From the sequence record NC_047890.1: a DNA stretch of 42,686 bases; one strand, given 5' to 3'. A program made the translations under genes and the position numbers. Each line of letters starts with the position of its first letter. The first letter of the stretch is position 1. Below the pieces are notes generated by a model that saw only the letters and a program-made list of their open reading frames with translations, was not told the DNA's origin and ran no database searches. Of this stretch, positions 1-42,686 are shown in pieces. Origin of the DNA: Escherichia phage PGT2.

Positions 1-260
1 TCCAACACAAATGAGGTCGCGTTTCCCCCGTAGGCCCGGCCTTCTGGATGGCTAAATGGCTGGATGGATGGATGGCTGGACGGCTAGACGTTTAGACGGC
101 TAAATGGCCAAATGACCGTAAAAAGGGCCGTGGGCACTGATAGGGTCAATCGGGCTGTAAGCCACGCCAACCGGGGTTTCCGCACATTACTTTATAAGAG
201 AGCTTGTAAGGTGTCTGGCGGCGATCCGTCTACGACGGGAGAAGGAAAGAGACGTGGGGT
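1..260. repeat. Left direct terminal repeat (DTR), 260 bp
   Basis: Bases 1-260 are identical to 42427-42686, checked block by block. The repeat runs to the window edge, so 260 bp is a minimum length. Confidence 0.9.
48..118. repeat. Array of short imperfect ~8-bp repeats (CTRRAYGG-like) inside the terminal repeat
   Basis: ggctaaatgg ctggatgg atggatgg ctggacgg ctagacgt ttagacgg ctaaatgg ccaaatga read directly. Resembles the short repeat series in T7 terminal repeats. Confidence 0.6.
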
Positions 261-316
261 ATCTATCTTTTTGGATACGCCTATCTTTTTCTAGTCATCT
301 ATCTTCTTACGATGAG

Positions 317-336
317 CTATCTATCTATCTATCTAT
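317..336. repeat. (CTAT)5 microsatellite flanked by TATCT-TTTTT iterons
   Basis: ctatctatctatctatctat at 317-336; ctatcttttt recurs at about 263-273 and 284-294, just inside the left terminal repeat. Confidence 0.6.
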
Positions 337-383
337 CCAGCTATCCGATTATCTTCGCTTCGACGGATCGGCTATCGCCTTTC

Positions 384-413
384 TTGTCTCCGCTACGATA
401 AGGGAGCTATACT
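384..413 (+). promoter_or_regulatory. Candidate sigma70-type promoter (TTGTCT-18-TATACT)
   Basis: -35 ttgtct at 384-389, -10 tatact at 408-413, 18-bp spacer; lies upstream of the strong RBS of ORF 453. Confidence 0.3.
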
Positions 414-452
414 AAGGATTGTGTTATTGCTCTTTAAGAATGAGGTGAGATT

Positions 453-656
453 ATGGCTATACGTAATTGGGCGGCGGTGCTGGCCATTGTGGATAGTGTG
501 GGGACTGAAGCGGCGTTATCCTTGCCGTATGTTCCGGCTGATGCTAACACTATGCCGGACCGGGCCAAAAGATATGCAATTGAGTACAACATACAACGGG
601 GGAAGTATGGCGAGACCTTGCCGGAAGTACCGACGTCGTGCACTTATCGGGATTGA
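453..656 (+). CDS. Hypothetical early protein (67 aa)
   Basis: ATG at 453 preceded by SD gaggtgag with 7-nt spacing; first ORF after the terminal repeat. Confidence 0.45.
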   Translation: MAIRNWAAVLAIVDSVGTEAALSLPYVPADANTMPDRAKRYAIEYNIQRGKYGETLPEVPTSCTYRD

Positions 657-1047
657 TGTATCCGGGTATCATCCGCCGGCTGTGGTCCGGAACTGGTTAA
701 GGGATACTTTAAGGGATGAATCCAAGGGACTAGCCGATCAGCTTATTTGTAAGCCGTGGGCTGTCTGGTTAGTTTGGGCGCATGATGAGATAGATAGTAA
801 GCGGGTCAGTCTTCTGTGCTGTGTAGGGGAGCGGCAAGCCTTAACTATTATGGATAACGCGGCCCGGCTTGACGGGTATCTGTGCCGGCTGTATCAGTCC
901 GATGGCGATGCGGTCGATATTAGTCATCTGTCCGAGTATAAATCGGTGCATAACTGGACCGGATACTGGAAGCATGTACACGGTGAGGATATGCCGATGA
1001 CGATTAGTGATGACGGATTGAGAAAGCTGCGGGAGATGATAGCATGA
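607..1047 (+). CDS. Hypothetical early protein (146 aa); possibly the C-terminal part of a frameshifted product with ORF 453-656
   Basis: ATG at 607 follows a G5 run (598-602); frame is +1 relative to ORF 453 and overlaps its 3' end; a strong terminator follows the stop. Confidence 0.35.
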   Translation: MARPCRKYRRRALIGIDVSGYHPPAVVRNWLRDTLRDESKGLADQLICKPWAVWLVWAHDEIDSKRVSLLCCVGERQALTIMDNAARLDGYLCRLYQSDGDAVDISHLSEYKSVHNWTGYWKHVHGEDMPMTISDDGLRKLREMIA

Positions 1048-1051
1048 TGAT

Positions 1052-1088
1052 AAGGGGCGGGGAGTGTATCCTTGCCCCTTTCTTTTTG
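1052..1088 (+). terminator. Rho-independent terminator
   Basis: 12-bp stem aaggggcgggga / tccttgcccctt (two G-U pairs), loop gtgta, then tctttttgt. Confidence 0.6.
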
Positions 1089-1217
1089 TATTGTGGATCC
1101 CTGACGTTCTCCTGATCGGGCTTATGCACTCATGGCTGTGCGTTGGCTTGTCTTACGTGTGATTAGGTGTCTGGTGAGAACGTGGGAGATTATTTTCGAT
1201 TATTTTTAAAATATCGC

Positions 1218-1246
1218 TTGCATAGTTCGTGAGGAGGCTATATAGT
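1218..1246 (+). promoter_or_regulatory. Candidate sigma70 early promoter (TTGCAT-17-TATAGT) with AT-rich upstream region
   Basis: -35 ttgcat at 1218-1223, -10 tatagt at 1241-1246, preceded by tatttttaaaatat. Confidence 0.4.
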
Positions 1247-1442
1247 TAATTTCAACGGCGGGGTAGTGGGAAGACAAGCCGATAAAATAGGATTCCCTCC
1301 ACATGGTCAGTTACCATAGGTCATCCGAGACACCAAACGGAATAACTAACAAGTAGTAACACCGGGGCAAGGAGGCCGCCTCGAAAGAGGAAAGTAGCTG
1401 GTAATGGCGTATGAAGCATTACCCCGGTGAGAAAGAAAGAGA

Positions 1443-1471
1443 TTGACAAGTTCAGAAGTAAGCAGTAAGAT
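1443..1471 (+). promoter_or_regulatory. Candidate sigma70 early promoter (TTGACA-17-TAAGAT)
   Basis: Consensus -35 ttgaca at 1443-1448; -10 taagat at 1466-1471; shares the upstream 18-mer aagaaagagattgacaag with the promoter at 1639. Confidence 0.45.
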
Positions 1472-1638
1472 GTAAATCAAGCAGTACGGGAGGAGGCGCA
1501 ACGGAAGGCGCGACACGGCGGGGAGTGATACAAGGACGCGCCAAAGGGAGAACGGATAGGAACTGCGAACCCTTCCGGATACCCGCTACGGATAGCACAG
1601 TTTGCCGGAGTATGCAGACACGGTAAGCAAGAAAGAGA

Positions 1639-1667
1639 TTGACAAGCTGGACAAGTTACCCGATAAT
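1639..1667 (+). promoter_or_regulatory. Candidate sigma70 early promoter (TTGACA-17-GATAAT)
   Basis: Consensus -35 ttgaca at 1639-1644; -10 gataat at 1662-1667; an RBS and small ORF follow. Confidence 0.55.
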
Positions 1668-1698
1668 AAGCTCAACGAATCGCAACGAGGAGAGAGAA

Positions 1699-1857
1699 AT
1701 GACTTACTACGAATCAGCAGAGAACGAGATGATCACCGCAGCACGCGCAGAAAAAGAAGTGCGCCGCCACGGTTGCAGCGTAGCAGAATTTTACGCAGAC
1801 TGCGGTACTCATGAGGAGTACGACGCACAAGCTGTGTTAGAATGGTTAGGGTACTAA
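1699..1857 (+). CDS. Small acidic early protein (52 aa)
   Basis: ATG at 1699 preceded by SD aggagag; lies downstream of the promoter at 1639; 11 acidic versus 4 K/R residues. Confidence 0.45.
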   Translation: MTYYESAENEMITAARAEKEVRRHGCSVAEFYADCGTHEEYDAQAVLEWLGY

Positions 1858-1878
1858 CAGAAAGTTTGAAGAAATAGG

Positions 1879-1907
1879 TTGACAAGTTAAGCAGTAAGCA
1901 GTAACCT
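1879..1907 (+). promoter_or_regulatory. Candidate sigma70 early promoter (TTGACA-17-TAACCT, weak -10)
   Basis: -35 ttgaca at 1879-1884; the spacer carries two AAGCAGTA copies, paralogous to the promoter at 1443. Confidence 0.35.
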
Positions 1908-2122
1908 AGAAAGCAAGCAGTACAGCAGTATCACAGCAGCCTAGAATAGGTTGAGTCGCACTCGGTGTGAATAGCTGACCTGACAGCGATATGGTTCAGG
2001 GGGGCCGGAGGATAGACAGTGACGTCGCCAATAAGCCCAACAAACGAAAGGTTTGTTAGTGTATCCTCACAGTAGGGTACAGCAACAAACTAACCGTAAA
2101 CGCAACGTAAACGAGGCGCACC

Positions 2123-2362
2123 ATGACTACACGTACAGAATACAACGGACACAAAAACAAAACTCACTGGAATGTAAGCCTTTGGATTAATAACGATGAG
2201 GCACTTTACCAGTTGGCAAGAGAATTTATCAACGATAACAATAACCGTAATGATGCGGCCCGCGCTATGGCGTTATTTTTAGCACAGTTGGGACAAGATA
2301 AAACGCCGGACGGATTCAAATACAGCGCTACGGCGATCCGCGCCGCTATGGTTGAGATGTAA
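2123..2362 (+). CDS. Hypothetical early protein (79 aa)
   Basis: ATG with SD acgagg at 6-nt spacing; first of a run of tightly packed same-strand early ORFs. Confidence 0.55.
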   Translation: MTTRTEYNGHKNKTHWNVSLWINNDEALYQLAREFINDNNNRNDAARAMALFLAQLGQDKTPDGFKYSATAIRAAMVEM

Positions 2363-2373
2363 GGAGGCACAGC

Positions 2374-2640
2374 ATGAAACTTTCAAAACAGACCGCGACC
2401 GATATTAGAAGCGCACTCATTGGCAAGGACGTGCCAGCTATCGCAAAGGCTTATCAGGAAAAAGGTTTATCATTCACTCGCTTCATATGGGACGCGTATC
2501 ACTCTATCGGCCACGCTAAGACCAACGAGATACTGACAGCTAACAACAAGCTGACAGTTATTGGTGGCTATGTAACCGATATTAATGACAGCCATATTGA
2601 AACAATGCTAAAACTAGCGTTCAAAGATTGTAAGTTTTAA
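2374..2640 (+). CDS. Hypothetical early protein (88 aa)
   Basis: ATG preceded by strong SD aaggagg. Confidence 0.6.
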   Translation: MKLSKQTATDIRSALIGKDVPAIAKAYQEKGLSFTRFIWDAYHSIGHAKTNEILTANNKLTVIGGYVTDINDSHIETMLKLAFKDCKF

Positions 2641-2682
2641 GATAGCGGCATACAAATAAACGCAACGTAAATGAGGCGCACC

Positions 2683-3177
2683 ATGAAAGTATTAATTTCT
2701 GCATTCCGTAAAGAAAACGATCTGTTAACCCATATCAATAATCACGCGGAATTATTCGACCGCATCACCGCATTAGGATTGACGCCGCAGCCCGTCGATG
2801 GCGTGTGGAAAGGTGTATCGGAGTTTTCTTACATGGTACACGGTGTTACCACAGCGATGCTCAAAGCGTTTTATGCAATGGCCCGCGACTACAATCAGGA
2901 GGCTATCTTGCTTGTTGCTGATGATAACCGTGCCGCAGTAGTGCCCACCGATGGCCCGGTGATGGCCCCGATGATTGACGTTGGCGACTGGAGGGAAGTA
3001 AGCAAAGAGATCGCGATACAATTTGACGGATACACCAAGACACGCGACGGCCGCTATTTTGTCGCCGCCACTCGTGAGCAGTTCGGCCTCGCCACTCGTC
3101 GGCTGTTAGCCACACAGATGGGCGTAATCGCTGCTAACGAATATGCAGCACGTGTAAACGCAGTGGGAGGATTATAA
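2683..3177 (+). CDS. Hypothetical early protein (164 aa)
   Basis: Start at the second ATG (2683), chosen because the 28-nt block before it is 27/28 identical to the leader of ORF 2123; the provided ORF track begins at the in-frame ATG at 2671. Confidence 0.55.
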   Translation: MKVLISAFRKENDLLTHINNHAELFDRITALGLTPQPVDGVWKGVSEFSYMVHGVTTAMLKAFYAMARDYNQEAILLVADDNRAAVVPTDGPVMAPMIDVGDWREVSKEIAIQFDGYTKTRDGRYFVAATREQFGLATRRLLATQMGVIAANEYAARVNAVGGL

Positions 3178-3178
3178 A

Positions 3179-3427
3179 ATGCGCAAACTTAGTGAAATTG
3201 TACATCATACCAACGTATTCTATAACAGCAAGGGTTATCTGTGGATAACCCTGAAGGACGTGCGACCTGACGGGCGTCATCGTGTGGTAGTACGTAAAAT
3301 GTACAGCAAATACGTTAGTAATTGGTCATTGGATACAGTACGCATTAATAACGAGACTTTTCAGATTGACTCACAGATTGACCTACAACCAACGGCAAGC
3401 CATTCCGCACCATATTTTTCTAACTGA
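3179..3427 (+). CDS. Hypothetical early protein (82 aa)
   Basis: ATG preceded by SD gggagg; overlaps the stop of the upstream gene. Confidence 0.55.
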   Translation: MRKLSEIVHHTNVFYNSKGYLWITLKDVRPDGRHRVVVRKMYSKYVSNWSLDTVRINNETFQIDSQIDLQPTASHSAPYFSN

Positions 3428-3504
3428 ATCCGGGCCTATGCCGCGCACTCATGGGCGGCATACACACGCAGTCAGATCACTCCCATTAAATGAGGACACA
3501 GAGC

Positions 3505-3618
3505 ATGAACACAATAACATCCGGCCTTGCACTCATCGGCGCGATTATCGGCGTCGCTGTGTTTAACGCATTACCCTTGATTATTGGCGTGGCGGTCCTC
3601 AGTTGGTGGCTGTCATAA
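3505..3618 (+). CDS. Small hydrophobic peptide (37 aa), probable single-pass membrane protein
   Basis: ATG with SD gagga at 8-nt spacing; translation MNTITSGLALIGAIIGVAVFNALPLIIGVAVLSWWLS; below the 60-aa cutoff of the ORF track. Confidence 0.4.
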   Translation: MNTITSGLALIGAIIGVAVFNALPLIIGVAVLSWWLS

Positions 3619-3682
3619 TCCACGCACTCATAGCCACACTGTACGTTTCCCAATCGCATAAATCATTTTGAGATATACGCAT

Positions 3683-3862
3683 ATGAATATCAAAGAATCC
3701 GTATCCACAGAACGCGCCGCCGCCATACAGTACGCGCACGATAACCTATCACCGGATGCCTACTGGCTGTTCTGTGACCGCCTGCGAGAAACAGAAGACC
3801 TATCCCCGGATAATATCCACGCCCTTATTGTCGCAGTAGCGCAGGAGGTATCTAATGTTTGA
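3683..3862 (+). CDS. Small acidic early protein (59 aa)
   Basis: ORF track starts at TTG 3668; first in-frame ATG is 3683; weak RBS. Confidence 0.4.
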   Translation: MNIKESVSTERAAAIQYAHDNLSPDAYWLFCDRLRETEDLSPDNIHALIVAVAQEVSNV

Positions 3863-4103
3863 GGCAGCGAACGACGACCATTACAACGAAAAAACAGCGG
3901 TGGAAGAGGCACAGAAGCGCCAGCGGGATATAAATATGGCCTACTATACACGCGTGCCGCCGTTTTACGTGTTCCAGCAAGGCGCTGGCGTAGGCGTATC
4001 CTTCGGTTATGTCACGAGATACGGTTACTCCCGTGTAGGTTATGCCAGCTATTCAGATGCGGCAGAGGCGGCAGAGGCTTATTCCAGTGAGGTAGAAAGA
4101 TGA
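3855..4103 (+). CDS. Hypothetical early protein (82 aa), Tyr/Gly-rich
   Basis: ATG preceded by SD aggagg. Confidence 0.55.
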   Translation: MFEAANDDHYNEKTAVEEAQKRQRDINMAYYTRVPPFYVFQQGAGVGVSFGYVTRYGYSRVGYASYSDAAEAAEAYSSEVER

Positions 4104-4288
4104 CACAGCCTGTATATAACGTGTACCGGGGTACGGGCGTATGCGTCCGGATGACATACCGGGCTGTTCCGGGGGCCACAGTGTCCCAATTCCTCACTGA
4201 CTCCGGCTGGCAGGATAGTCTAGTGACTGAACGCACTATTCGCGCCAGTCTCCCACTCGTGGCTAAAAACGTGAGGTTCAAGGCATGA
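4100..4288 (+). CDS. Hypothetical early protein (62 aa)
   Basis: ATG preceded by SD gtgaggtag; overlaps the upstream stop. Confidence 0.5.
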   Translation: MTQPVYNVYRGTGVCVRMTYRAVPGATVSQFLTDSGWQDSLVTERTIRASLPLVAKNVRFKA

Positions 4289-4620
4289 AAATCATTAATC
4301 CGTTACATCTCATCCAGTTCGTGGTGGTTTACTTGTACACGTGGTACGCCCTACGCAGTGCGCCGCGTGTAGAAGGCTTTAACGTCGGCTGGAGTAGTCC
4401 GCACGATGACTTTCAGGTGTACTATAACGCGCAGGTCAACGTGTTAGGCGTAATCACACCAGCGCAGGACACTACATGGCAACCAGTCGGCTGGCGTGCG
4501 TGGTTCAACCTTGTCCGGGCATACGATGACCTGCTCGAACAGACCACAGCGGCGTTCATTGAAGCGTATCTCCCAGACTTCGCAGATGACATCAACGAAT
4601 CAGACACAGAGGACAAATAA
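4285..4620 (+). CDS. Hypothetical early protein (111 aa)
   Basis: ATG preceded by SD gtgagg at 8-nt spacing. Confidence 0.55.
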   Translation: MKIINPLHLIQFVVVYLYTWYALRSAPRVEGFNVGWSSPHDDFQVYYNAQVNVLGVITPAQDTTWQPVGWRAWFNLVRAYDDLLEQTTAAFIEAYLPDFADDINESDTEDK

Positions 4621-4622
4621 TT

Positions 4623-5132
4623 ATGACAAGCATCAATCCGGTAGACCTGACCACTTTAGGCGCACGAGTAACCGACCCGGCACAGTTGACAGAAGGCCGC
4701 TGGTATGTGGTCCGCGTTAACTGTAGAGGCTATACCCCACTGGTACACGCCAAATACTTGGGTATGAAAGGGCGCGCCTCACATGCGTTTGAGGTGTGCG
4801 ATGAGGATCATCTCGCGTTAAAGCGTTCTCTGGGCCTCGCCAAGCGCATCCACCGCGACAACGGTAGTATCCGCTCAGGGAAGATTGATGGCGGCGGTAT
4901 CTGCGAGATATTCAAGTTTAAGCAGGCGACAGCTACCCGATCCAATGCGCCGCAGCCCACCGCAACCTTATCCACAGTGGACCAATTCAAATCAGAGATT
5001 GACGCGTTACGTGCCAAGGCTACACAGAAGCGCGACCAGATTGCTCAGCTCTCAGAAGAGATTGCCGGGATTAACATCGCTATCTACGACACACGCAAGA
5101 AACTCAAAGCCAGCTTAGAGGGTTACATCTAA
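4623..5132 (+). CDS. Hypothetical early protein (169 aa)
   Basis: ATG two bases after the upstream stop; long ORF in the gene-dense early block. Confidence 0.55.
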   Translation: MTSINPVDLTTLGARVTDPAQLTEGRWYVVRVNCRGYTPLVHAKYLGMKGRASHAFEVCDEDHLALKRSLGLAKRIHRDNGSIRSGKIDGGGICEIFKFKQATATRSNAPQPTATLSTVDQFKSEIDALRAKATQKRDQIAQLSEEIAGINIAIYDTRKKLKASLEGYI

Positions 5133-5150
5133 TGCTTGAAGGTGACAAAC

Positions 5151-5462
5151 ATGAAACCGAATCAAAAGAAAATCCCCGCGCTCCTGCTATGCTCAGTCGG
5201 CCTGTTATGGGCGGTGGCGGGGGTCAATCAGGCGTATGCTTCGACCCATATGCAGCGGGAGACAGTGACGTTCAACAGTCTTTTCAAGTCGGATGGGATG
5301 ACTATCAGTGAGTATTGTTCTGTGACATTGCAGGGCAATACACAGATTGTTGAAGCATCCTGCTACGGCATACTGAAACCCACAGTGACGGACTTACAAC
5401 GCCGCTATCCACTCGTGGCCTTCCACGTGATTATCAATGGCGAGTCACTGAACACTATTTGA
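5151..5462 (+). CDS. Predicted secreted/periplasmic early protein (103 aa) with N-terminal signal peptide
   Basis: N-terminus MKPNQKKIPALLLCSVGLLWAVAGVNQAYAS has a basic n-region, hydrophobic core and AxA-like cleavage site; two Cys in the mature part; ORF track start 5136 is a TTG. Confidence 0.55.
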   Translation: MKPNQKKIPALLLCSVGLLWAVAGVNQAYASTHMQRETVTFNSLFKSDGMTISEYCSVTLQGNTQIVEASCYGILKPTVTDLQRRYPLVAFHVIINGESLNTI

Positions 5463-5470
5463 GGTGTATC

Positions 5471-5761
5471 ATGGAATTATCTGATGATGAACTGCGCCTG
5501 ATTCGTCGGGCGCTGGCGTTCGCAGTCCGTCACCTGCATGTATGTGCCGATGAAGCACGAGACAACCACCGCATTAAAGAGAAGCTCGACTGTCAGGTCG
5601 AAGCAGCACGGTTAACCACACTATCGGAGAAACTCCATGGGCAAATCATCAAACAACTCAAAGCCAAATCTCAAAACACTACACGAGGAACTGAGGGATG
5701 CGGAGCCAGATGCACTAATCTCTGTGCGGCAGGCGCGTGTCCTAATCGCCAGTCTGATTAA
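5471..5761 (+). CDS. Hypothetical early protein (96 aa)
   Basis: ATG with SD gagg at 6-nt spacing; its 3' part overlaps ORF 5637 in another frame. Confidence 0.4.
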   Translation: MELSDDELRLIRRALAFAVRHLHVCADEARDNHRIKEKLDCQVEAARLTTLSEKLHGQIIKQLKAKSQNTTRGTEGCGARCTNLCAAGACPNRQSD

Positions 5762-5963
5762 CCTCCAGAATGTTGTGGTGTCATTGATGGACACCATGGA
5801 CCATAACACCAAAATCATGAACGACTCCCACGCAGCGACGAATGAGAATTTCATCGGGCTGTTAGGCATCTGTAAGGTGCTGGGCCGGGAGTTAAACGTC
5901 GAGATTAACGGCATCAACGAGGCCACCACAGGCTCCCCATACAACAACAAAACGAGGCACTAA
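5637..5963 (+). CDS. Hypothetical early protein (108 aa)
   Basis: ATG with SD ggag at 7-nt spacing; overlaps ORF 5471 by about 125 nt. Confidence 0.4.
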   Translation: MGKSSNNSKPNLKTLHEELRDAEPDALISVRQARVLIASLINLQNVVVSLMDTMDHNTKIMNDSHAATNENFIGLLGICKVLGRELNVEINGINEATTGSPYNNKTRH

Positions 5964-35753: not shown

Positions 35754-38516
35754 ATGGCTATTACGTTTTATGCTACCAACAACTTCACTGGTGATGGTAC
35801 TACCGTAAACTGGAATATTAACTTCGCAGACGGTTATATCGACATCACCACCGTGAAGGCGCGGTATCTGGATAATACCGGGAGCTACGTTGACATCGCT
35901 ATTTCAAGCGTGGCAGGAAACGTAGTAACCATTTCCCCGGCTGTGGCGGACGGTCAGGAGTTCCAAATCTATCGTGATACAGAGAAGCGGTTCCCGCTGG
36001 TGGACTTCTCTGACGGTGCAATCCTCAACGAGACTAACCTTGACACGCTGGCTACTCAAGCTGTGATGGTGTCTGCTGAGGCATTCGACCAGTCTAACAA
36101 CGGTGTGCGTATCGCAGGTGATTCCTTGGTTGTTGCACAGGGTATCGACGCCAAGGCACAGGAAGCTCTGGACAACTCCGAGGCTGCTGTAGCTACAGCG
36201 AACGGTATCGACGGTAAAGCGCAGACGGCATTGAATACCGCCGCCGCCGCTGTCGCCACGGCTAATGCTGCCACATCTACTGCTGCTGGTGCTGTATCTA
36301 CGGCCAACACCGCACTGTCTACTGCCCACGATGCCGCCGATGACGCAGCTACCGCTATCACTACCGCTAACGGCGCTGTGATTACGGCCAATGCTGCAAC
36401 CACTACGGCCAACGCCGCTAGTGCTGCCGCCTCTGCTGCAACGACTACTGCGAACAGTGCTGCAAACGACGCTGCTACTGCTGTGTCTACTGCGGGTACG
36501 GCCTTGTCTACTGCGAACACCGCATCTACCAACGCCTCTACCGCTGTGTCCACGGCTAACGGCGCTAAGGCTACTGCTGAGGGTATCGAGGCTAAAGCGG
36601 ATTCTGCTTTGGCAGCCTCTGCTACCGCTGTGTCCACAGCTAACTCAGCCGAGGCTACGGCCAACGCTATCGACGGTAAGGCTACGGACGCATTAGACAC
36701 TGCCGACTCCGCTGTGGCTACGGCTAACGCTGCTGTTTCTACGGCTAACTCTGCTACTGCTACGGCTAATGCTGCCTCTTCTACTGCGAGTTCGGCTGCC
36801 TCTGACGCCAGTACCGCCTTGAGCACAGCTAATGCTATTGACGCAAAGGCACAGACTGCTTTGGATAATACCACGGCTCTGGATGCGGCCACCATGAAGA
36901 AAGCCGCCAACTTATCTGATATTGCGGATAAGGCGGCTGCATGGCTTAACGTCCGTCCTATTGGCTCCACGCCATTGGCAGGCGACCCGGTAGGGGATTA
37001 CGATGCTGTTACTAAGCGTTGGGTAGAGAACCTGATTAACACAGGTACTGTCGGTCCAACCATGAACGGGGTGATGAACTTCGGCGTCGGTGACTTCCAT
37101 CTCCGGGATAGCCGCGCGTACATCCAGCCTTATGAGGTTGTCTCTGACGGTCAGTTACTGAACCGCGCTGACTGGCCTGAACTTTGGGCCTACGCCCAAA
37201 TGCTGTCGCCTATAACGGATGCAGCTTGGTTGGCAGACCCTCTCAAGCGCGGCGCTTACTCTACCGGAAACGGAACCACTACCTTCCGAGTACCGGATAG
37301 GAACGGTGTTCAGTCAGGCTCTGTAAGGGCGCTTTTTGGGCGTGGTGACGGTGGGAACTCTTCTATCGGCAGTACCATCATGGAGTCCTTCGTACCGAAT
37401 ATCACGGCTACGTTAAATATGCACGGTGCTGGTCCCGCATCAGAACCTGCCGCTGGTACTAACGTGGCAGGATTTGGTGGTGCCTTGGTTGCTACGGGAG
37501 AGGCTCTCCCGAGATACCTGCGTGGGGTTACTCTGTTATCTGCTGGTGGTAACTCCTATGGTGGAGCTACCTTCGATGCCTCCCGTTCCAGTGCTGCTTA
37601 TGGTCGTGGTGGTCTGACTACGGATGAGGTTCTGCCGCGTAACTTCACTGGTGTATGGGTAATTCGTGCATCTGGCGGCTTCGTAGCGGCTAATACGCAG
37701 TGGCAGGTTATAAACCAAGATGCGACTAGGCCCGGTAACGGTACTGCCGTCTTAGGTGGTAATATTGTATCTGAGTACCGCGTTGGTGGTGCCTTGGAGG
37801 GTACAGCAAACTTCCGTATGGCGGGTACTATCGATGGTTCGTATGGCGCGCGCATTGCTGTTTATAATGCCACATCTTTAAATGGCGCCAGCTTCGATTT
37901 TACAGAGCACGGGAACATAGAGACTCCCCTTGGTAGGGCTATTGTTATAGGCAACTATGGTATAGGTTCGCAAGCAGATGCTATACCTACTTCGAGGGAT
38001 AACGCATTTATCTCTAACGCTGATAGTAATAGTTCTTGGTCTGCTTCTAACGGGGGTGGCTTTCAAATTACATATGCAGCTAACCGTATCGTCCAGTTCT
38101 GGGTAAGTCAAGGTGGTACTACGGCTTATTTCCGTGCTAATAGCACAGACAGTAACCCCCAACGACCGAAGTCTGCATCTCCTTGGGTCACACTCCAGAA
38201 TGCTGGTACTTCGGACGCTAATGTAAAAACCGTCCTCGGTGACTTAGACTTATCTATACCGTTGAGTAATATCAACGCACTGGAGTTTAAGAAATTCCGC
38301 TACAACAAGGATGGTGAGGATGGCCCGGTTCGACGGGGCATTATCGCGCAGCAGGCGCAGAATGTGGACCCGGAGTACGTACATTCTGCGGATAAGTCCG
38401 GGGTTATGACTCTTGATAGTAACCCGCTGCTGTTGGATGCTCTAGCTGCTGTCAAAGCACTATCTGCTAAAGTGGCCGCTCTGGAAGAGCGTATTGATGA
38501 ACTAACTTCTCAGTAA
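35754..38516 (+). CDS. Tail fiber protein: T7 gp17-like N-terminal adaptor, Ala/Thr/Ser-rich repeat shaft, C-terminal intramolecular chaperone domain
   Basis: N-terminus LVDFSDGAILNETNLDTLATQAVMVSAEA parallels T7 gp17 [29 protein letters not shown]; C-terminus GIIAQQAQ...LAAVKALSAKVAALEERIDELT is chaperone-like; ORF track start 35742 is a TTG. Confidence 0.8.
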   Translation: MAITFYATNNFTGDGTTVNWNINFADGYIDITTVKARYLDNTGSYVDIAISSVAGNVVTISPAVADGQEFQIYRDTEKRFPLVDFSDGAILNETNLDTLATQAVMVSAEAFDQSNNGVRIAGDSLVVAQGIDAKAQEALDNSEAAVATANGIDGKAQTALNTAAAAVATANAATSTAAGAVSTANTALSTAHDAADDAATAITTANGAVITANAATTTANAASAAASAATTTANSAANDAATAVSTAGTALSTANTASTNASTAVSTANGAKATAEGIEAKADSALAASATAVSTANSAEATANAIDGKATDALDTADSAVATANAAVSTANSATATANAASSTASSAASDASTALSTANAIDAKAQTALDNTTALDAATMKKAANLSDIADKAAAWLNVRPIGSTPLAGDPVGDYDAVTKRWVENLINTGTVGPTMNGVMNFGVGDFHLRDSRAYIQPYEVVSDGQLLNRADWPELWAYAQMLSPITDAAWLADPLKRGAYSTGNGTTTFRVPDRNGVQSGSVRALFGRGDGGNSSIGSTIMESFVPNITATLNMHGAGPASEPAAGTNVAGFGGALVATGEALPRYLRGVTLLSAGGNSYGGATFDASRSSAAYGRGGLTTDEVLPRNFTGVWVIRASGGFVAANTQWQVINQDATRPGNGTAVLGGNIVSEYRVGGALEGTANFRMAGTIDGSYGARIAVYNATSLNGASFDFTEHGNIETPLGRAIVIGNYGIGSQADAIPTSRDNAFISNADSNSSWSASNGGGFQITYAANRIVQFWVSQGGTTAYFRANSTDSNPQRPKSASPWVTLQNAGTSDANVKTVLGDLDLSIPLSNINALEFKKFRYNKDGEDGPVRRGIIAQQAQNVDPEYVHSADKSGVMTLDSNPLLLDALAAVKALSAKVAALEERIDELTSQ
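36100..36900. repeat. Imperfect tandem codon repeats (STAN/ATAN units) inside the tail fiber gene
   Basis: About 16 copies of nCyACnGCnAAy (encoding x-T-A-N) at roughly 7-, 11- and 14-residue spacing. Confidence 0.7.
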
Positions 38517-38525
38517 GGAGAGCCG

Positions 38526-38897
38526 ATGTCCGACTTCGAAGAAGAGGATGTCACACAGGAAGAGAACGGGTCTTCGGACCTGTTCAAACCCTTAGAGACT
38601 ATCCCCGGCGCTACCGCCAACCGGGACCAGATGGCAGAGCTACACCAGCTTATCTGCATCGCCCTGTCCGCACGTATCCGGGCAGGTATCTGGTCCTCCG
38701 GCGATATTGCCGCAGCTACAAAGTTCCTGAAGGACAACAACGTTACTGCCGATGTTGGCGACAACAAGGCACTCCAGAAACTACGCGATGAGATGGAAAC
38801 TAAGCAGAAGGCACGTCGTGAAGAACGGACGTATCTCTCTGAGCAAGAACTCGTCAAACTCGCAACGGAAGAACTGAATAACGAGATATGGCACTAA
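38526..38897 (+). CDS. Terminase small subunit (putative)
   Basis: Small acidic protein directly upstream of and overlapping the large terminase gene; strong SD aaggagag; assigned by synteny. Confidence 0.55.
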   Translation: MSDFEEEDVTQEENGSSDLFKPLETIPGATANRDQMAELHQLICIALSARIRAGIWSSGDIAAATKFLKDNNVTADVGDNKALQKLRDEMETKQKARREERTYLSEQELVKLATEELNNEIWH

Positions 38898-40696
38898 GAG
38901 AATCAGCAGAAAGAGAAGAACAGCGGTTACTTGAACTCGCAGCACTGCGGGACATGTACCCCACGTTCCTACCGTTTCTGATTGATTTCATGGTGATGCT
39001 CGGATTCTTCGTCACCCCGGTACAGAAGCTCATTGCTCAATTCCTTGAGTACGGGCCTCTGTACCGGATGGTGCAGGCCCAGCGTGGCCAAGCGAAGACT
39101 ACCATCACAGCCGCATATGCAATCTGGCGACTTATCCACGATACCAACCTTGCCGTGTTAATCGTCTCGGCAGGGGGCAAGCAGGCGAACGAGATTTCAA
39201 CCCTCATCGTCCGCTCATTCAAAACGTGGGATAAGCTGGCCTGCATGTGTCCTGACGCCTCTATGGGCGACCGTGAGTCAGTCGAAGCATTCGACGTTCA
39301 CTACAACTTAAAGAGGCTGAATAAATCTCCGTCCGTGGCCTGTACTGGCATCACGGGTAACTTGCAGGGTAAACGTGCGGGTCTGCTTATCGCGGACGAC
39401 GTTGAGTCCCAGAAGAACTCCCTGACTGCGGTCATGCGTGAGAACCTTCTGAACCTGACTCGTGACTTTACCTCCATCTGCTCCACCGGGGATATTATCT
39501 ACCTCGGTACACCGCAGACTACAGAATCAATTTATAACACCCTGCCGGGGCGTGGCTTTACTGTCCGCATCTGGCCGGGACGTTTCCCTACCGCAGAGCA
39601 GGTGGAAGCCTACGGCGACCAGCTATGCCCTGTCTTTAGGATGAAGATTGCTTCACGCCCTGACCTGACTACAGGCTACGGGCCGGATGGGCTTCAGGGT
39701 GCTCCGGTTGACCCTGTAATCCTCGGCGAAGCCTTCCTGAACAAGAAAGAGATTGACCAAGGAACTGCATACTTCCAGTTGCAGCACATGCTTCAGACGC
39801 GCCTGATGGATGCTATGCGCAAGCCATTACACGCAGAGAAGCTGATTGTGGCCCAACTGCCGAAGCGTGACGGTCTGTTCCCTATCACCATTACGCGAGA
39901 AATCTCTGTACAAGCCTACATGCGCCGAAACGTCCTGAGCAAGCCTCTGGTATTCGGTGTGCCCGGTAGCGTGTCTAAGGACGTCGCTACGCTTCAGGGC
40001 GTATGCTTCTACATCGACCCTGCTGGTGGTGGTAAGAACGCGGATGAAACTGCATTCGCTTGTACCGGGTTCCTGAACTCCAATATCTTCCTACTGGATT
40101 GGGGCGGCTTACCGGGCGGATATGCCCCGGATGTTATGTCCGCTCTCGCTCAACGTGTGTTTGATGTACGGCCCAATGTTGTCAAAATCGAAAAGAACTT
40201 CGGTTACGGCGCATTCCGCGAAGTATGGTTGCCGTACCTCTGGGCCATTTATGATAAAGCTGGTGTTAACCGTCCCGGCGTAGAGGACGATATGGTACAC
40301 GGCCAGAAGGAGAAGCGAATCATTGATACGCTTGAGCCTGTAATGGGTCGTGGCTCGCTTATTGTTGACGAGCGTCTCATCAAGGAAGACGAAGACCAAA
40401 CCATGCGGTACAGCGCACAAATGCGTGTGACGTACTCCGGGTTCCTACAGATGGTTAATATCTCCTACGACAAAGATGCGTTGGTGCATGATGACCGACT
40501 GGATGCTTTGGAAGGAGCGGTTCGTCATTGGCAGGATTGGCTTGCCAAGAACCAAGAGAAGGCCATTCAGGCTCAACGGAAACGTGAGTTCGAAGAGTGG
40601 CAGAAAGACCCTATGATGAAGAAGCGTTGTCAGTCCGTGAAGGAATACAATGCTGGTCGTCGTGGTAAAACCATGTTTGATAAGAGAAAACGCTAA
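38888..40696 (+). CDS. Terminase large subunit
   Basis: LAVLIVSAGGKQ, SPSVACTGITGNLQGKRAGLLIADDVESQKNS, IIYLGTPQT and ALVHDDRLDALEGA match the corresponding T7 gp19 segments. Confidence 0.9.
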   Translation: MALRESAEREEQRLLELAALRDMYPTFLPFLIDFMVMLGFFVTPVQKLIAQFLEYGPLYRMVQAQRGQAKTTITAAYAIWRLIHDTNLAVLIVSAGGKQANEISTLIVRSFKTWDKLACMCPDASMGDRESVEAFDVHYNLKRLNKSPSVACTGITGNLQGKRAGLLIADDVESQKNSLTAVMRENLLNLTRDFTSICSTGDIIYLGTPQTTESIYNTLPGRGFTVRIWPGRFPTAEQVEAYGDQLCPVFRMKIASRPDLTTGYGPDGLQGAPVDPVILGEAFLNKKEIDQGTAYFQLQHMLQTRLMDAMRKPLHAEKLIVAQLPKRDGLFPITITREISVQAYMRRNVLSKPLVFGVPGSVSKDVATLQGVCFYIDPAGGGKNADETAFACTGFLNSNIFLLDWGGLPGGYAPDVMSALAQRVFDVRPNVVKIEKNFGYGAFREVWLPYLWAIYDKAGVNRPGVEDDMVHGQKEKRIIDTLEPVMGRGSLIVDERLIKEDEDQTMRYSAQMRVTYSGFLQMVNISYDKDALVHDDRLDALEGAVRHWQDWLAKNQEKAIQAQRKREFEEWQKDPMMKKRCQSVKEYNAGRRGKTMFDKRKR

Positions 40697-40920
40697 TGAC
40701 TATTGCTGCACAACTCCCAGACCCGAAGCTCGACGTTAAGGGCGACCGACTGCGTTTCCTGTTGGCCGCTTGTATCAGCGAGTGTAATATCCAAGCAGAC
40801 AACGGTGCGTATGATAAAGGCACCAGCTTCAAAGCCCTGCTTACTGCCGCTGCTGCACTCGTGAAGGTAGCTCCGGTAGAACCTGAAGACCCGGAAGACC
40901 CTGAAAACCCGGGAGAATAA
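40696..40920 (+). CDS. Hypothetical protein (74 aa)
   Basis: ATG overlapping the terminase stop; acidic Pro/Glu-rich C-terminus. Confidence 0.45.
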   Translation: MTIAAQLPDPKLDVKGDRLRFLLAACISECNIQADNGAYDKGTSFKALLTAAAALVKVAPVEPEDPEDPENPGE

Positions 40921-40957
40921 TACAATTGGCCAAGGACGGCTATTGAGGAACCTATTT

Positions 40958-41245
40958 ATGCGTATCGACGACATCTGTTCACCCGGTTTTGTACCTAACT
41001 CCCACCGCCTTCGTCAGGAGACTGTCCGGGCTATTGCTTTCTGTGAAACCATAGGAAGCGCTGAGAAGGCCGTAGAGCTACAAAAATACTTTCGTGAGGC
41101 TATCGAATACCTTGACCGAGAAATCGTCTCCAGCGGCTTGCCAGAGAGCGAGAAGCCTATTGTGGATGCTGATGCTGTGTCACCATTCGCTGAGGAAGAA
41201 GTTGTGGCCGAACCGAAACCTAAAGCCAAAGGAGGCAAGAAGTGA
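40958..41245 (+). CDS. Hypothetical protein (95 aa)
   Basis: ATG at 40958 with SD gaggaa at 8-nt spacing (ORF track start 40943 is a TTG). Confidence 0.5.
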   Translation: MRIDDICSPGFVPNSHRLRQETVRAIAFCETIGSAEKAVELQKYFREAIEYLDREIVSSGLPESEKPIVDADAVSPFAEEEVVAEPKPKAKGGKK

Positions 41246-41694
41246 ATCTGACCGCAGCGGAGAAGTTAGTTCGACATTTTGAGGGTCTGAAGTTGGAATC
41301 GTACCTGTGTCCTGCTGGTATATGGACTATCGGGTACGGGCAGACCAAGGGTATTAAGAAAGGCATGGTGTGGACCAAGGCTCAGGCCGAGGCAGATATG
41401 TCTGCCACTGTCCGGCGCTTTGCCGAAGAAGTACGTCAACTGGTCCGCAAGGATACGACCGACGCTGAACTGAGCGCATTCACATCTCTGGCCTATAACA
41501 TCGGTACTCCGAACTTTAAGACGTCCTCTGCTCTGCGTTGGCATAATGCCCGTGAGTCCGCGTCCAAGGTATGTGCTGGTATCCGTATGTGGAACAAGGC
41601 CACCGTCAATGGCAAGAAGATTATCCTGAAAGGTCTGGTACGTCGCCGAGAGGCTGAATGCTCCGTATATACAACTGGAGACTTTAATGAATAA
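41242..41694 (+). CDS. Endolysin, phage lysozyme family (GH24 / T4-lysozyme-like)
   Basis: Motif EGLKLESYLCPAGIWTIGYGQT (Glu-8aa-Cys-5aa-Thr arrangement); GTG start with SD ggagg at 6-nt spacing; no N-terminal hydrophobic segment. Confidence 0.75.
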   Translation: MNLTAAEKLVRHFEGLKLESYLCPAGIWTIGYGQTKGIKKGMVWTKAQAEADMSATVRRFAEEVRQLVRKDTTDAELSAFTSLAYNIGTPNFKTSSALRWHNARESASKVCAGIRMWNKATVNGKKIILKGLVRRREAECSVYTTGDFNE

Positions 41695-41857
41695 ATTTAA
41701 GCAATATCTGGGTGCCGCATGGGATTTCACCAAGGAACATGGTGTTACTATCCTGCGTGGTGTGGCTGTCCTCCTTGTAGGTCGTAAGGTTGGTCGCGTT
41801 GCCAACCAGTCCGCCGATGTACTTGATACGGTCATCAAAGGGACTAAGAAGAATTAA
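41687..41857 (+). CDS. Small protein (56 aa) with one short hydrophobic segment; possible lysis accessory protein
   Basis: ATG overlaps the endolysin stop; translation MNKFKQYLGAAWDFTKEHGVTILRGVAVLLVGRKVGRVANQSADVLDTVIKGTKKN; below the 60-aa ORF cutoff. Confidence 0.3.
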   Translation: MNKFKQYLGAAWDFTKEHGVTILRGVAVLLVGRKVGRVANQSADVLDTVIKGTKKN

Positions 41858-41866
41858 AGGATAGCC

Positions 41867-42250
41867 ATGTTCGAAGGCACCGGGAACTACGGTTCCCTTG
41901 TGACCACCCTCCTTACGGGAGCAGTGGCGGCTCAAACCTCTTATCAGGTATCCCGTATAGTCACACATGATTCTCTGTTATTAGTTGGCATCCTCTGCGT
42001 CATCGGTATCGTGGTAGGTCTGGGTCATGCTCTCTCAAGCAAGTCCCCTCTCCCATTCCGCCGTATCGTAGGCAAGGTGCTTATGTCTACTGGCGTGGCC
42101 GTTACAGCCGCTGCTGTTTATTACTTCAAACCAAGTACCGACCCGTTAGTCGTCATTGCCATTGGCGCTGGGTTAAGCGTCATGGGTTCTGGCTGGCTGG
42201 AAGAGTTCGTCCGTAACAGAACAGGAACCAAGAAGGATGATGGTAGTTAA
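41867..42250 (+). CDS. Multi-pass membrane protein, putative holin
   Basis: Three to four hydrophobic segments and a charged C-terminal tail EEFVRNRTGTKKDDGS; SD aagga at 6-nt spacing; adjacent to endolysin. Confidence 0.55.
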   Translation: MFEGTGNYGSLVTTLLTGAVAAQTSYQVSRIVTHDSLLLVGILCVIGIVVGLGHALSSKSPLPFRRIVGKVLMSTGVAVTAAAVYYFKPSTDPLVVIAIGAGLSVMGSGWLEEFVRNRTGTKKDDGS

Positions 42251-42402
42251 AAGCTCTCACAAGCTCTACAACGCTCTCAAGGACGAGAGCAGTACGATGT
42301 TACCACCTGACCCTGATTAGATGCCTGATGACTTCATTAGCACGTTTTAAGTTGATTCCTGATTACGTGGTTAGCTAGTCCACAGAGGGCAGTCCTAAAA
42401 TT

Positions 42403-42411
42403 TGATATAAT
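42403..42411 (+). promoter_or_regulatory. Extended -10 promoter element (TGaTATAAT) facing the right terminal repeat
   Basis: tg at 42403-42404 and perfect tataat at 42406-42411; no good -35, which extended -10 promoters can lack. Confidence 0.35.
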
Positions 42412-42426
42412 TTTGTGAGGGGGCAG

Positions 42427-42686
42427 TCCAACACAAATGAGGTCGCGTTTCCCCCGTAGGCCCGGCCTTCTGGATGGCTAAATGGCTGGATGGATGGATG
42501 GCTGGACGGCTAGACGTTTAGACGGCTAAATGGCCAAATGACCGTAAAAAGGGCCGTGGGCACTGATAGGGTCAATCGGGCTGTAAGCCACGCCAACCGG
42601 GGTTTCCGCACATTACTTTATAAGAGAGCTTGTAAGGTGTCTGGCGGCGATCCGTCTACGACGGGAGAAGGAAAGAGACGTGGGGT
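42427..42686. repeat. Right direct terminal repeat (DTR), 260 bp
   Basis: Exact copy of 1-260. Confidence 0.9.

What the first reader, a model, noticed from the sequence alone, without database searches (positions are those of the whole stretch)
5471..5963. Two early ORFs overlapping by about 125 nt, each with its own RBS
ORF 5471-5761 and ORF 5637-5963 both have plausible SD sequences and protein-like translations in the overlap. This could be a genuine overlapping gene pair, a programmed frameshift product, or one ORF being shorter than drawn.
Basis: seen in the sequence. Interest (0 to 1): 0.35.

Follow-up and report, generated by a model that had tools for sequence, protein, structure and literature searches.

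The report
Conserved overlapping early phage gene pair
Two small early genes of coliphage PGT2 really do share 125 bases read in two different frames, and relatives show that both readings are kept by selection, so this is a true (and so far unannotated) overlapping gene pair rather than a frameshift or a mis-drawn ORF.

Summary
ORF A is 5471-5761 (96 aa) and ORF B is 5637-5963 (108 aa). Both have an ATG and a Shine-Dalgarno site, and they share 125 nt, with B in the +1 frame of A.

The window is Escherichia phage PGT2. Its record annotates A only; phiKT annotates neither ORF.

Seven further diverged relatives keep both ORFs, both ribosome-binding sites, and a constant 166 nt between the two starts. 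Their overlaps run from 125 to 197 nt.

Both frames are constrained in the shared segment:
- **A frame:** silent changes collapse in the overlap (window vs L008: 23/33 outside, 1/21 inside).
- **B frame:** the third base is invariant in 13 of 19 columns over A's GCGAxCTN[LK]CxxGxCP motif, even where B's amino acid changes. It is invariant in 0 of 15 columns just past A's stop.
- **Cysteines:** all four A-frame Cys are kept in every lineage.

In one sub-lineage an HNH homing-endonuclease gene sits inside the overlap. Its cassette supplies a recoded A C-terminus and a new B N-terminus, so both proteins are preserved when separated.

I found no frameshift signal, RNA structure or family match. 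What the two proteins do is unknown. I rate this a new member of a known kind, of moderate interest.

The parts
5461..5466 (+). Shine-Dalgarno site of ORF A (GAGGTG)
   Evidence: Read directly. A purine-rich SD (GAGGTG, GGAGGTG, GGGGG or AAGGAG) sits at the same distance in all relatives.
5471..5761 (+). ORF A, 96 aa. It has a helical-hairpin N-domain (residues ~5-71) and a Cys-rich C-terminal tail. It is annotated in PGT2 as hypothetical protein g00013.
   Evidence: P0001 is 100% identical. Silent third-position changes against phiKT and L018 mark 5471-5636 as coding. The single-sequence AlphaFold2 model has pLDDT above 90 for residues 11-50 and 44-68 in the tail. Homologues of 96-120 aa occur in 9 lineages.
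5626..5629 (+). Shine-Dalgarno site of ORF B (GGAG, 7-nt spacer), lying inside A's conserved codons S-E-K-L-H
   Evidence: GGAG is present in 8 of 9 overlapped lineages; L019 has AAGGA.
5637..5963 (+). ORF B, 108 aa, with a low-complexity N-terminus followed by two long predicted helices. It is not annotated in PGT2 or phiKT.
   Evidence: none of 8 start variants of B is in the protein collection, which includes NCBI; the phiKT early region carries no CDS. Homologues of 103-141 aa are listed. The AlphaFold2 model has helices at 24-63 and 69-98 with mean pLDDT 62.
5637..5761 (+). Dual-coding segment of 125 nt: A codons 56-96 plus stop, and B codons 1-42 in the +1 frame
   Evidence: Window vs L004 nucleotide identity is 76% here against 53% (A-only) and 58% (B-only). 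A-frame silent changes are suppressed in 13 of 15 lineage pairs. All indels between lineages are multiples of 3 and keep both frames open.
5696..5749 (+). A-frame motif GCGARCTNLCAAGACPNR, with four invariant Cys codons at 5699, 5711, 5723 and 5738. In the B frame the same bases encode (D)AEPDALISVRQARVLIA.
   Evidence: The motif GCGAxCTN[LK]CxxGxCP is found in all lineages. The B codon before each Cys always ends in T although B's amino acid varies (D/V/G; D/T/N; Ser TCT/AGT; R/L). Under B-only coding the probability is 0.007-0.026 per lineage.
5728..5729 (+). Position where relatives L011-L013 and L015 carry a ~490-nt insert containing an HNH_3 homing-endonuclease gene. There is no insert in this window.
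   Evidence: The alignment shows left homology ending at 5727/5728 and right homology resuming at 5730. The Pfam match to HNH_3 has E = 2e-7.

Best explanation
This is a genuine same-strand, out-of-frame overlapping gene pair in the early region of an Ermolevavirus-type podophage (PGT2).

**How it works (partly inferred).** Both proteins are made from one rightward early transcript by separate initiation.
- A starts at ATG 5471 and B starts at ATG 5637.
- B's ATG and Shine-Dalgarno site are written inside A's conserved codons Ser-Glu-Lys-Leu-His-(Gly/Asp/Glu).
- Ribosomes translating A run on for 125 nt into B and stop at TAA 5759-5761.

**What is shown.** The shared 125 nt encode A's C-terminal tail, which carries a four-cysteine motif (C-x3-C-x3-C-x4-C followed by Pro), and B's N-terminal 42 residues, including the first turns of its conserved helix (QARVLIASLI). 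Both readings are under purifying selection.

**What is inferred.**
- The two products are small early (host-takeover type) proteins that probably act together.
- A's Cys4 tail is probably a small metal-binding (most likely zinc) or disulfide module appended to a helical hairpin.
- Codon usage suggests that B is the older reading in the overlap and that A's tail was overprinted on it.
For: 1. **Both ORFs are kept in relatives.** The ORFs, both SD+ATG pairs and the 166-nt start-to-start distance are conserved in W, phiKT, L018, L004, L019, L017, L007, L016 and L008-10. Amino-acid identity falls to ~50-58%, and overlaps are 125, 146, 179, 185, 191 and 197 nt.

2. **The B frame is constrained in the overlap.** An A-frame silent change alters B's second codon base. 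In amino-acid-identical codons, these changes occur as follows:

| Pair | A-only region | Overlap | p |
|---|---|---|---|
| W vs L004 | 17/26 | 5/26 | 0.0017 |
| W vs L008 | 23/33 | 1/21 | 2.5e-6 |

   Thirteen of 15 pairs are significant.

3. **The A frame is constrained in the overlap.**
   - Across 8 lineages B's third base is invariant in 13 of 19 columns of 5694-5750, including six columns where B's amino acid changes. It is invariant in 0 of 15 non-Met columns in 5760-5810, just after A's stop.
   - All four Cys codons are kept because the preceding B codon always ends in T.
   - B's V/A polymorphisms at the Cys3 and Cys4 positions are TGT/TGC, which is silent in A.
   - A residue 57 varies only among Gly, Asp and Glu. 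All three have codons starting with G, which keeps B's ATG.

4. **A natural experiment separates the two genes.** In L011-13 and L015 an HNH gene is inserted between Cys3 and Cys4.
   - The insert carries a recoded A end: GGT AAC TGC CCC ACA AGG, where the window has GGC GCG TGT CCT AAT CGC. Gly, Cys, Pro and Arg are kept through silent changes.
   - It also carries a new SD, ATG and B head (MKQPKNLTNLLTEISAQGANQPITTA) that rejoins B at QARV.
   - In that right-hand copy the A frame has decayed to NLCTGC followed by a stop.

5. **The two halves look like typical overlap content.** A's tail and B's N-terminus are the low-confidence parts of the structure models.
Against: - There is no transcript or protein evidence for either product.
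- Over the whole overlap, suppression of B-frame silent changes is weak. Only W vs L004 reaches p = 0.01. The signal for A is concentrated in the Cys-motif block.
- Between close relatives (W vs L018) the overlap changes slightly faster than its flanks: 17/125 against 13/166 and 20/202. Much of it is therefore only loosely constrained in both proteins.
- One ENA variant (P0012) has Cys4 replaced by Arg.
- The most distant A homologue (P0029, 46% identity) has a tail with a single Cys, and its +1 frame cannot encode B's core.
- In the overlap, codon usage favours B (+0.15 bits per codon) over A (-0.24).
- No Pfam, PHROG, PDB-sequence or fold match gives any function, so the metal-binding idea is untested.
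Confidence: 0.88

Rival explanations
1. Only B is functional across the shared segment. A is a ~60-residue helical protein whose ORF happens to run on until the first stop codon, and its tail is a tolerated by-product.
For: - Codon usage in the overlap fits B better than A.
- A's tail has low pLDDT.
- The tail's length and linker vary widely, and A's stop moves between lineages.
- P0012 has lost Cys4 and P0029 lacks the motif.
Against: - With B's protein fixed, the A frame would stay open only ~1% of the time, yet it is open in all 9 lineages across overlaps of up to 197 nt.
- B's third bases are frozen exactly where they form A's Cys, Gly, Thr-Asn and Pro codons, even when B's own residue changes.
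- When the HNH insertion separates the genes, the A end is kept (G-x-C-P-x-R) through silent recoding.
Confidence: 0.05
2. A programmed +1 ribosomal frameshift (or transcriptional slippage) joins A to B into one fusion protein.
For: The A and B frames are both open over 125 nt and the +1 relationship is conserved. This is the geometry a fusion would need.
Against: - There is no slippery heptamer and no homopolymer of 5 or more bases. The sequence at A's stop (GAT TAA C) offers no re-pairing for tRNA-Asp.
- B has its own conserved SD and ATG in every lineage.
- In the HNH lineage A and B are separated by a 126-codon gene and are still both kept.
- This does not exclude a low level of fusion product alongside the two separate proteins.
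Confidence: 0.03
3. The extra conservation of 5690-5760 reflects a nucleic-acid element (an RNA structure, a promoter, or a protein or endonuclease recognition site) rather than a second reading frame.
For: - Nucleotide identity in the distal 75 nt is 84% against 53-58% in the flanks.
- An HNH endonuclease gene has inserted exactly here. Such enzymes recognise conserved DNA.
Against: - The RNA fold is no better than shuffled sequence (z = -0.29). Rfam gives no hit.
- No promoter or terminator signal exceeds the shuffled expectation.
- The pattern of allowed and forbidden changes is codon-periodic. It preserves A-frame amino acids (TGT/TGC, TCT/AGT before G) rather than the bases themselves.
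- Conservation stops at A's stop codon.
Confidence: 0.04

Closest known systems
[quoted passage not shown]
   Same: Both are same-strand pairs in a dsDNA phage with the second gene in the +1 frame of the first. In both, one gene's flexible region shares DNA with the other's functional region. The same family occurs in overlapped and separated architectures, and gene callers routinely miss one partner (PMC6139136).
   Different: This pair lies in the early region, not the lysis cassette. Read directly from the sequences, A has no transmembrane segment and B has no lipoprotein signal or lipobox. There is no sequence similarity to spanins. According to the abstract listed, phiKT was chosen as a spanin-less phage. 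This is an analogy of architecture, not family membership.
Overprinted genes of small phages and viruses (phiX174 A/B/K and D/E, Qbeta/MS2 lysis gene). This comparison is from my own knowledge, not tested here.
   Same: Both involve long out-of-frame overlaps, independent initiation from an internal ribosome-binding site, one frame with genome-typical codon usage, and a compositionally odd, poorly structured reading in the other frame.
   Different: Those genomes are tiny and capsid size strongly limits their length. This is a 42.7-kb podophage, where overlaps longer than about 60 nt are unusual and automated annotation suppresses them.
Free-standing HNH homing endonucleases of T7-like and T4-like phages (intronless homing). 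This applies to the relatives, not the window.
   Same: The inserted 126-aa gene matches Pfam HNH_3. It is 40-46% identical to HNH genes of phiKT and T7-type phages. It sits between two genes with an ATGA start/stop overlap, and the flanks diverge from the insert-free allele as expected for co-converted or cleavage-immune flanks.
   Different: Here the insertion point lies inside a dual-coding segment. The cassette therefore has to supply, and does supply, a replacement C-terminus for the upstream gene and a replacement ribosome-binding site and N-terminus for the downstream gene. I know of no described case, but the literature check was limited.
Programmed-frameshift gene pairs of phages (T7 10A/10B, tail-assembly chaperones G/GT)
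   Same: Two frames are open over a shared stretch at the end of an upstream ORF.
   Different: There is no slippery site, the direction needed would be +1, and the downstream ORF has its own conserved start.

Membership tests
Same-strand out-of-frame overlapping (dual-coding) gene pair | Two ORFs open in different frames over the shared segment, each with its own start codon and ribosome-binding site | tested here: met
   for the window. One search shows both SD+ATG pairs in all lineages.
Same-strand out-of-frame overlapping (dual-coding) gene pair | Both ORFs stay open and homologous in diverged relatives, with indels in multiples of three | tested here: met
   9 lineages, overlaps of 125-197 nt, and a constant 166 nt between the two starts.
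Same-strand out-of-frame overlapping (dual-coding) gene pair | Silent-site variation in each frame drops inside the overlap compared with the single-coding flanks | tested here: met
   The A frame is strongly affected (13 of 15 pairs with p < 0.05). For the B frame, the effect over the whole overlap is weak, but it is clear over the Cys-motif block: the third base is invariant in 13 of 19 columns against 0 of 15 (Cys-codon analysis).
Same-strand out-of-frame overlapping (dual-coding) gene pair | Both products are detected in infected cells | not testable with these tools
   No proteomic or ribosome-profiling data for PGT2 or phiKT were available.
Programmed ribosomal frameshift / transcriptional slippage product | A conserved slippery sequence (X XXY YYZ, a homopolymer, or a prfB-like stop-codon context) in the overlap, and no independent start for the downstream frame | tested here: not met
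   no heptamer, no run of 5 or more bases, and the -1 frame is closed; the downstream ORF has a conserved SD+ATG.
Spanin (Rz/Rz1-type) overlapped pair | An i-spanin with an N-terminal transmembrane domain and an o-spanin with a lipoprotein signal, located in the lysis cassette | tested here: not met
   Reading the translations directly, A has no hydrophobic stretch and B has no lipobox. The locus lies upstream of the primase and helicase genes.
Known zinc-finger, zinc-ribbon or Fe-S cluster motifs (for A's tail) | A match to a curated family, or to the canonical CxxC...CxxC or CxxxCxxC spacing | tested here: inconclusive
   The spacing is C-x3-C-x3-C-x4-C. There is no Pfam, PHROG or PDB-sequence hit, and the motif was not found in 100,044 genomes. 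Metal binding was not tested.
HNH_3 free-standing homing endonuclease (insert in relatives L011-L015) | An HNH_3 domain above the Pfam threshold, in a gene present in some relatives and absent from otherwise collinear ones | tested here: met
   30.9 bits against a cut-off of 24.8. Presence and absence are shown. Cleavage activity and target site are not testable here.

The most novel reading that the evidence does not exclude
The dual-coding Cys-motif segment is the most mutation-proof DNA in this early region. That is why an HNH homing endonuclease uses it as a homing site. The endonuclease cassette spreads by carrying its own recoded copies of A's C-terminus and B's N-terminus, so it 'unpacks' an overlapping gene pair into two separate genes without loss of either protein. 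This would be a natural demonstration that both readings are needed, and a way for overlaps to be resolved in evolution.
Probability: 0.4. Interest if true: 0.6.

Novelty: new member of a known kind. Interest (0 to 1): 0.42.

Why it matters
- **Annotation.** It adds a well-supported long (125-197 nt) out-of-frame overlap to the few known in tailed dsDNA phages. It also shows that both published genomes are under-annotated: PGT2 lacks B and phiKT lacks both. The likely cause is that gene callers limit same-strand overlaps, so they called only one partner in every overlapped relative.
- **A clean test case.** The codon-level pattern shows mutual constraint clearly: B's third bases are frozen wherever they begin an A-frame Cys codon. 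This makes the locus a useful test case for tools that detect overlapping genes.
- **A natural control.** The lineage with the HNH insertion offers a ready-made separated version for experiments.
- **Limit.** The biological role of the two early proteins is still unknown, which limits the immediate impact.

Tried and rejected
- **Nucleotide and tblastn searches of the phage collection** found only phiKT.
- **IMG/VR scans** with B and A profiles returned only PGT2 and phiKT.
- **Two genome-collection DNA-pattern scans** found nothing.
It worked only after the third, profile search.
- **A wrong inference, later corrected.** Before DNA was available I inferred from protein pairs alone that A and the 103-aa B' could not overlap. 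I guessed an ATGA junction between them. The DNA showed that the ATGA belongs to an inserted HNH gene.
Single-sequence models gave only generic helical hairpins, and the fold searches were uninformative.
- **Pfam, PHROGs and PDB sequence searches** gave nothing above noise.
- **RNA structure, Rfam and promoter/terminator scans** found nothing.
- **The exhaustive representative search with A** found only L004's A and one more distant homologue, P0029, whose DNA could not be fetched.
- **One script timed out** and was replaced by an analytic calculation.

Full report
**What the window is.** The window is the complete genome of Escherichia phage PGT2 (42,686 bp). ORF A is 100% identical to 'hypothetical protein PGT2_g00013'. 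The only close relative in the phage collection is phiKT (Autographiviridae, Ermolevavirus), at 96% nucleotide identity over this region. The PGT2 genome announcement says nothing about these ORFs (PMC5773715). The phiKT record has no CDS in this part of the genome. None of eight possible start variants of ORF B exists in the 15-billion-protein collection, which includes NCBI, so PGT2's record annotates A but not B.

**Observation.**
- ORF A: ATG 5471 to TAA 5761, 96 aa, with GAGGTG at 5461-5466.
- ORF B: ATG 5637 to TAA 5963, 108 aa, with GGAG at 5626-5629 and a 7-nt spacer.
- The overlap is 5637-5761 (125 nt), and B is in the +1 frame of A.

Within this single genome the evidence is only suggestive. 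With B's protein fixed and its codons resampled, the A frame stays open that far in 1.1% of trials. With A's protein fixed, the +1 frame is open in 24%. Codon usage in the overlap fits B (+0.15 bits per codon) better than A (-0.24). Even so, A scores better there than a typical off-frame does (-0.36 to -0.81).

**Relatives.** phiKT is too close to be informative. There are only five differences in the overlap, and 5673-5963 is identical between the two phages, which marks a recombination mosaic boundary. Protein searches found about 35 relatives in metagenome assemblies. DNA could be retrieved for L004 and for L007-L019.

Eight further lineages, with B identity down to about 50%, all carry both ORFs:

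| Locus | A length (aa) | Overlap (nt) |
|---|---|---|
| L018 | 96 | 125 |
| L004 | 103 | 146 |
| L007 | 114 | 179 |
| L017 | 116 | 185 |
| L019 | 116 | 185 |
| L008-10 | 118 | 191 |
| L016 | 120 | 197 |

Three more features are shared.
- The distance from A's ATG to B's ATG is 166 nt in every lineage, and both Shine-Dalgarno sites are kept.
- Length differences are in-frame indels in the middle of the overlap. They lengthen a low-complexity stretch in both proteins at once.
- Gene callers reported only B in every one of these overlapped contigs. This explains why the first A search found so few homologues.

**Both frames are under selection.** In a +1 overlap, A's third codon base is B's second base, and B's third base is A's first base.

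- *A-frame silent changes.* In codons with identical amino acids, silent changes are frequent in the A-only part and rare in the overlap. For window vs L004 the counts are 17/26 and 5/26. For window vs L008 they are 23/33 and 1/21 (p = 2.5e-6). Thirteen of 15 lineage pairs are significant. This shows that B is read there.
- *B-frame silent changes.* Over the whole overlap, B-frame silent changes are only mildly reduced (window vs L004: 11/30 against 20/28, p = 0.01; other pairs not significant). In the block 5694-5750, however, B's third base is invariant across eight lineages in 13 of 19 columns. Six of those are columns where B's own amino acid changes. In the 15 non-Met columns right after A's stop (NLQNVVVS...), B's third base varies in every column while the amino acids stay fixed.
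- *Which bases are frozen.* The frozen bases are those that make A's motif GCGAxCTN[LK]CxxGxCP. The B codon before each Cys always ends in T whether it encodes D, V or G; D, T or N; Ser as TCT or AGT; or R or L. The probability under B-only coding is 0.007-0.026 per lineage.
- *Polymorphisms among close relatives.* B's V/A polymorphisms at two of these sites are TGT/TGC, which is silent in A.
- *B's start codon.* A residue 57 varies only among Gly, Asp and Glu. All three have codons starting with G, which preserves B's ATG.

**A natural experiment.** In L011-L013 and L015, A (96 aa) and a 103-aa B' are both called by the gene finder, with a 126-aa HNH_3 endonuclease gene between them (Pfam E = 2e-7; nearest phage homologues 40-46% identical). 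The alignment places a ~490-nt insert between window 5727/5728 and 5730, that is, between Cys3 and Cys4. The insert contains four things:
- **A recoded A end.** TCC GGT AAC TGC CCC ACA AGG AAT ACA GTA TGA encodes SGNCPTRNTV followed by a stop. Gly, Cys, Pro and Arg are kept, all through silent changes including a CGC-to-AGG switch.
- **The HNH ORF.** Its ATG overlaps A's stop (ATGA).
- **A new ribosome-binding site.** A strong SD (GGGAGGTG) is followed by an ATG.
- **A diverged B head.** MKQPKNLTNLLTEISAQGANQPITTA rejoins B at QARVLIASLIN.

In this right-hand copy the A frame has decayed to NLCTGC followed by a stop. On the left, the old B start survives as a 46-codon ORF that runs into the HNH gene. 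So when the two genes are physically separated, each protein's share of the overlap is still kept. This argues against both the 'A tail is junk' reading and the 'B starts later' reading.

**Alternatives.**
- *Frameshifting* would have to be +1. There is no slippery heptamer and no run of 5 or more bases, the third frame is full of stops, and B has its own start in every lineage.
- *An RNA or DNA element* is unlikely. The fold z-score is -0.29, Rfam gives no hit, and promoter and terminator matches are at the shuffled expectation. The constraint follows codon logic rather than base identity.

**Caveats.**
- Between close relatives the overlap changes at least as fast as the flanks: 17/125 against 13/166 and 20/202 for window vs L018. 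Outside the motif, both proteins are therefore flexible here.
- One ENA variant (P0012) has Cys4 replaced by Arg.
- The most distant A homologue (P0029) has a different tail with one Cys, and its +1 frame cannot encode B's core. The arrangement may therefore be limited to this clade.
- No expression data exist.

**What the proteins are.**
- *Protein A* is predicted as a confident helical hairpin (residues 5-31 and 35-71, pLDDT above 90 in the core) with a low-confidence Cys-rich tail.
- *Protein B* is predicted to have a disordered N-terminus and two long helices, with mean pLDDT 62.
- Pfam, PHROGs, PDB sequence search and Foldseek gave nothing meaningful for either protein.
- The motif does not occur in 100,044 bacterial and archaeal genomes.

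My inference is that these are two small early proteins, expressed together, and that A's tail is a small metal-binding or disulfide module. This is unproven.

**Comparison and verdict.** The closest known architecture is the Rz/Rz1 spanin pair. It is also a +1 overlap that exists in embedded, overlapped and separated forms, and it is also often missed by annotation (PMC6139136). This pair has none of the spanin-defining features, so it is not a member of that family. It is best filed as a new, unannotated member of the known class of overprinted phage genes. The added curiosity is a homing-endonuclease cassette that splits the overlap in some relatives. Interest is moderate.

Noticed in passing
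L011 540-1029; L013 ~2089-2578; equivalent to window 5728-5729: In some relatives an HNH_3 homing-endonuclease gene is inserted inside the A/B overlap. The insert carries a recoded A C-terminus and a new SD, ATG and N-terminus for B. The old B start is left as a 46-codon ORF that reads into the HNH gene.
   Followed up: yes
window 5530-5672 versus 5673-5963: Against phiKT the first stretch differs at about 15% of bases (21 differences), while the next 291 nt are identical. This sharp recombination mosaic boundary falls inside the overlap.
   Followed up: partly
window 1-4926: This stretch matches the right end of the phiKT record (37842-42586), so the two deposited genomes are circularly permuted by about 4.7 kb. 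[quoted passage not shown]
   Followed up: partly
window 5151-5462 (ATG at 5151 within ORF 5136-5462): The gene just upstream encodes a ~100-aa protein with a signal-peptide-like N-terminus (MKPNQKKIPALLLCSVGLLWAVAGVNQAYAS). It is conserved in the same position in L004, L007 and L008, and looks like a possible exported early protein.
   Followed up: no
window 5626-5636: B's SD (GGAG) can pair with CUCC immediately before the ATG, forming a GGAG-AAA-CUCC mini-hairpin that appears in the MFE fold. This might couple B's initiation to translation of A. The stem is only 4 bp and is weaker in L004.
   Followed up: no
L008 2868-3065, L009 2417-2614, L010 539-736; L011 1265-1465: Some relatives carry an extra small gene between B and the conserved downstream gene. 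In L008-10 it is a 65-aa protein with CxxC...CxxC pairs (MADFCKGCAVEHF...CEGCGAGY). In L011 it is an unrelated 66-aa ORF. The window has neither.
   Followed up: no
protein P0029 (no DNA available): The most distant A homologue (103 aa, 46% identity over residues 4-72) has a non-homologous-looking tail with one Cys. It has no possible ATG at the position of B's start, so the overlap may have arisen after this lineage split off.
   Followed up: partly
L007 vs L017: The A-only region is nearly identical between these two loci (1 silent change in 54 codons), whereas the overlap and B are well diverged (16/35 silent changes in B-only). This is another mosaic boundary near B's start.
   Followed up: no
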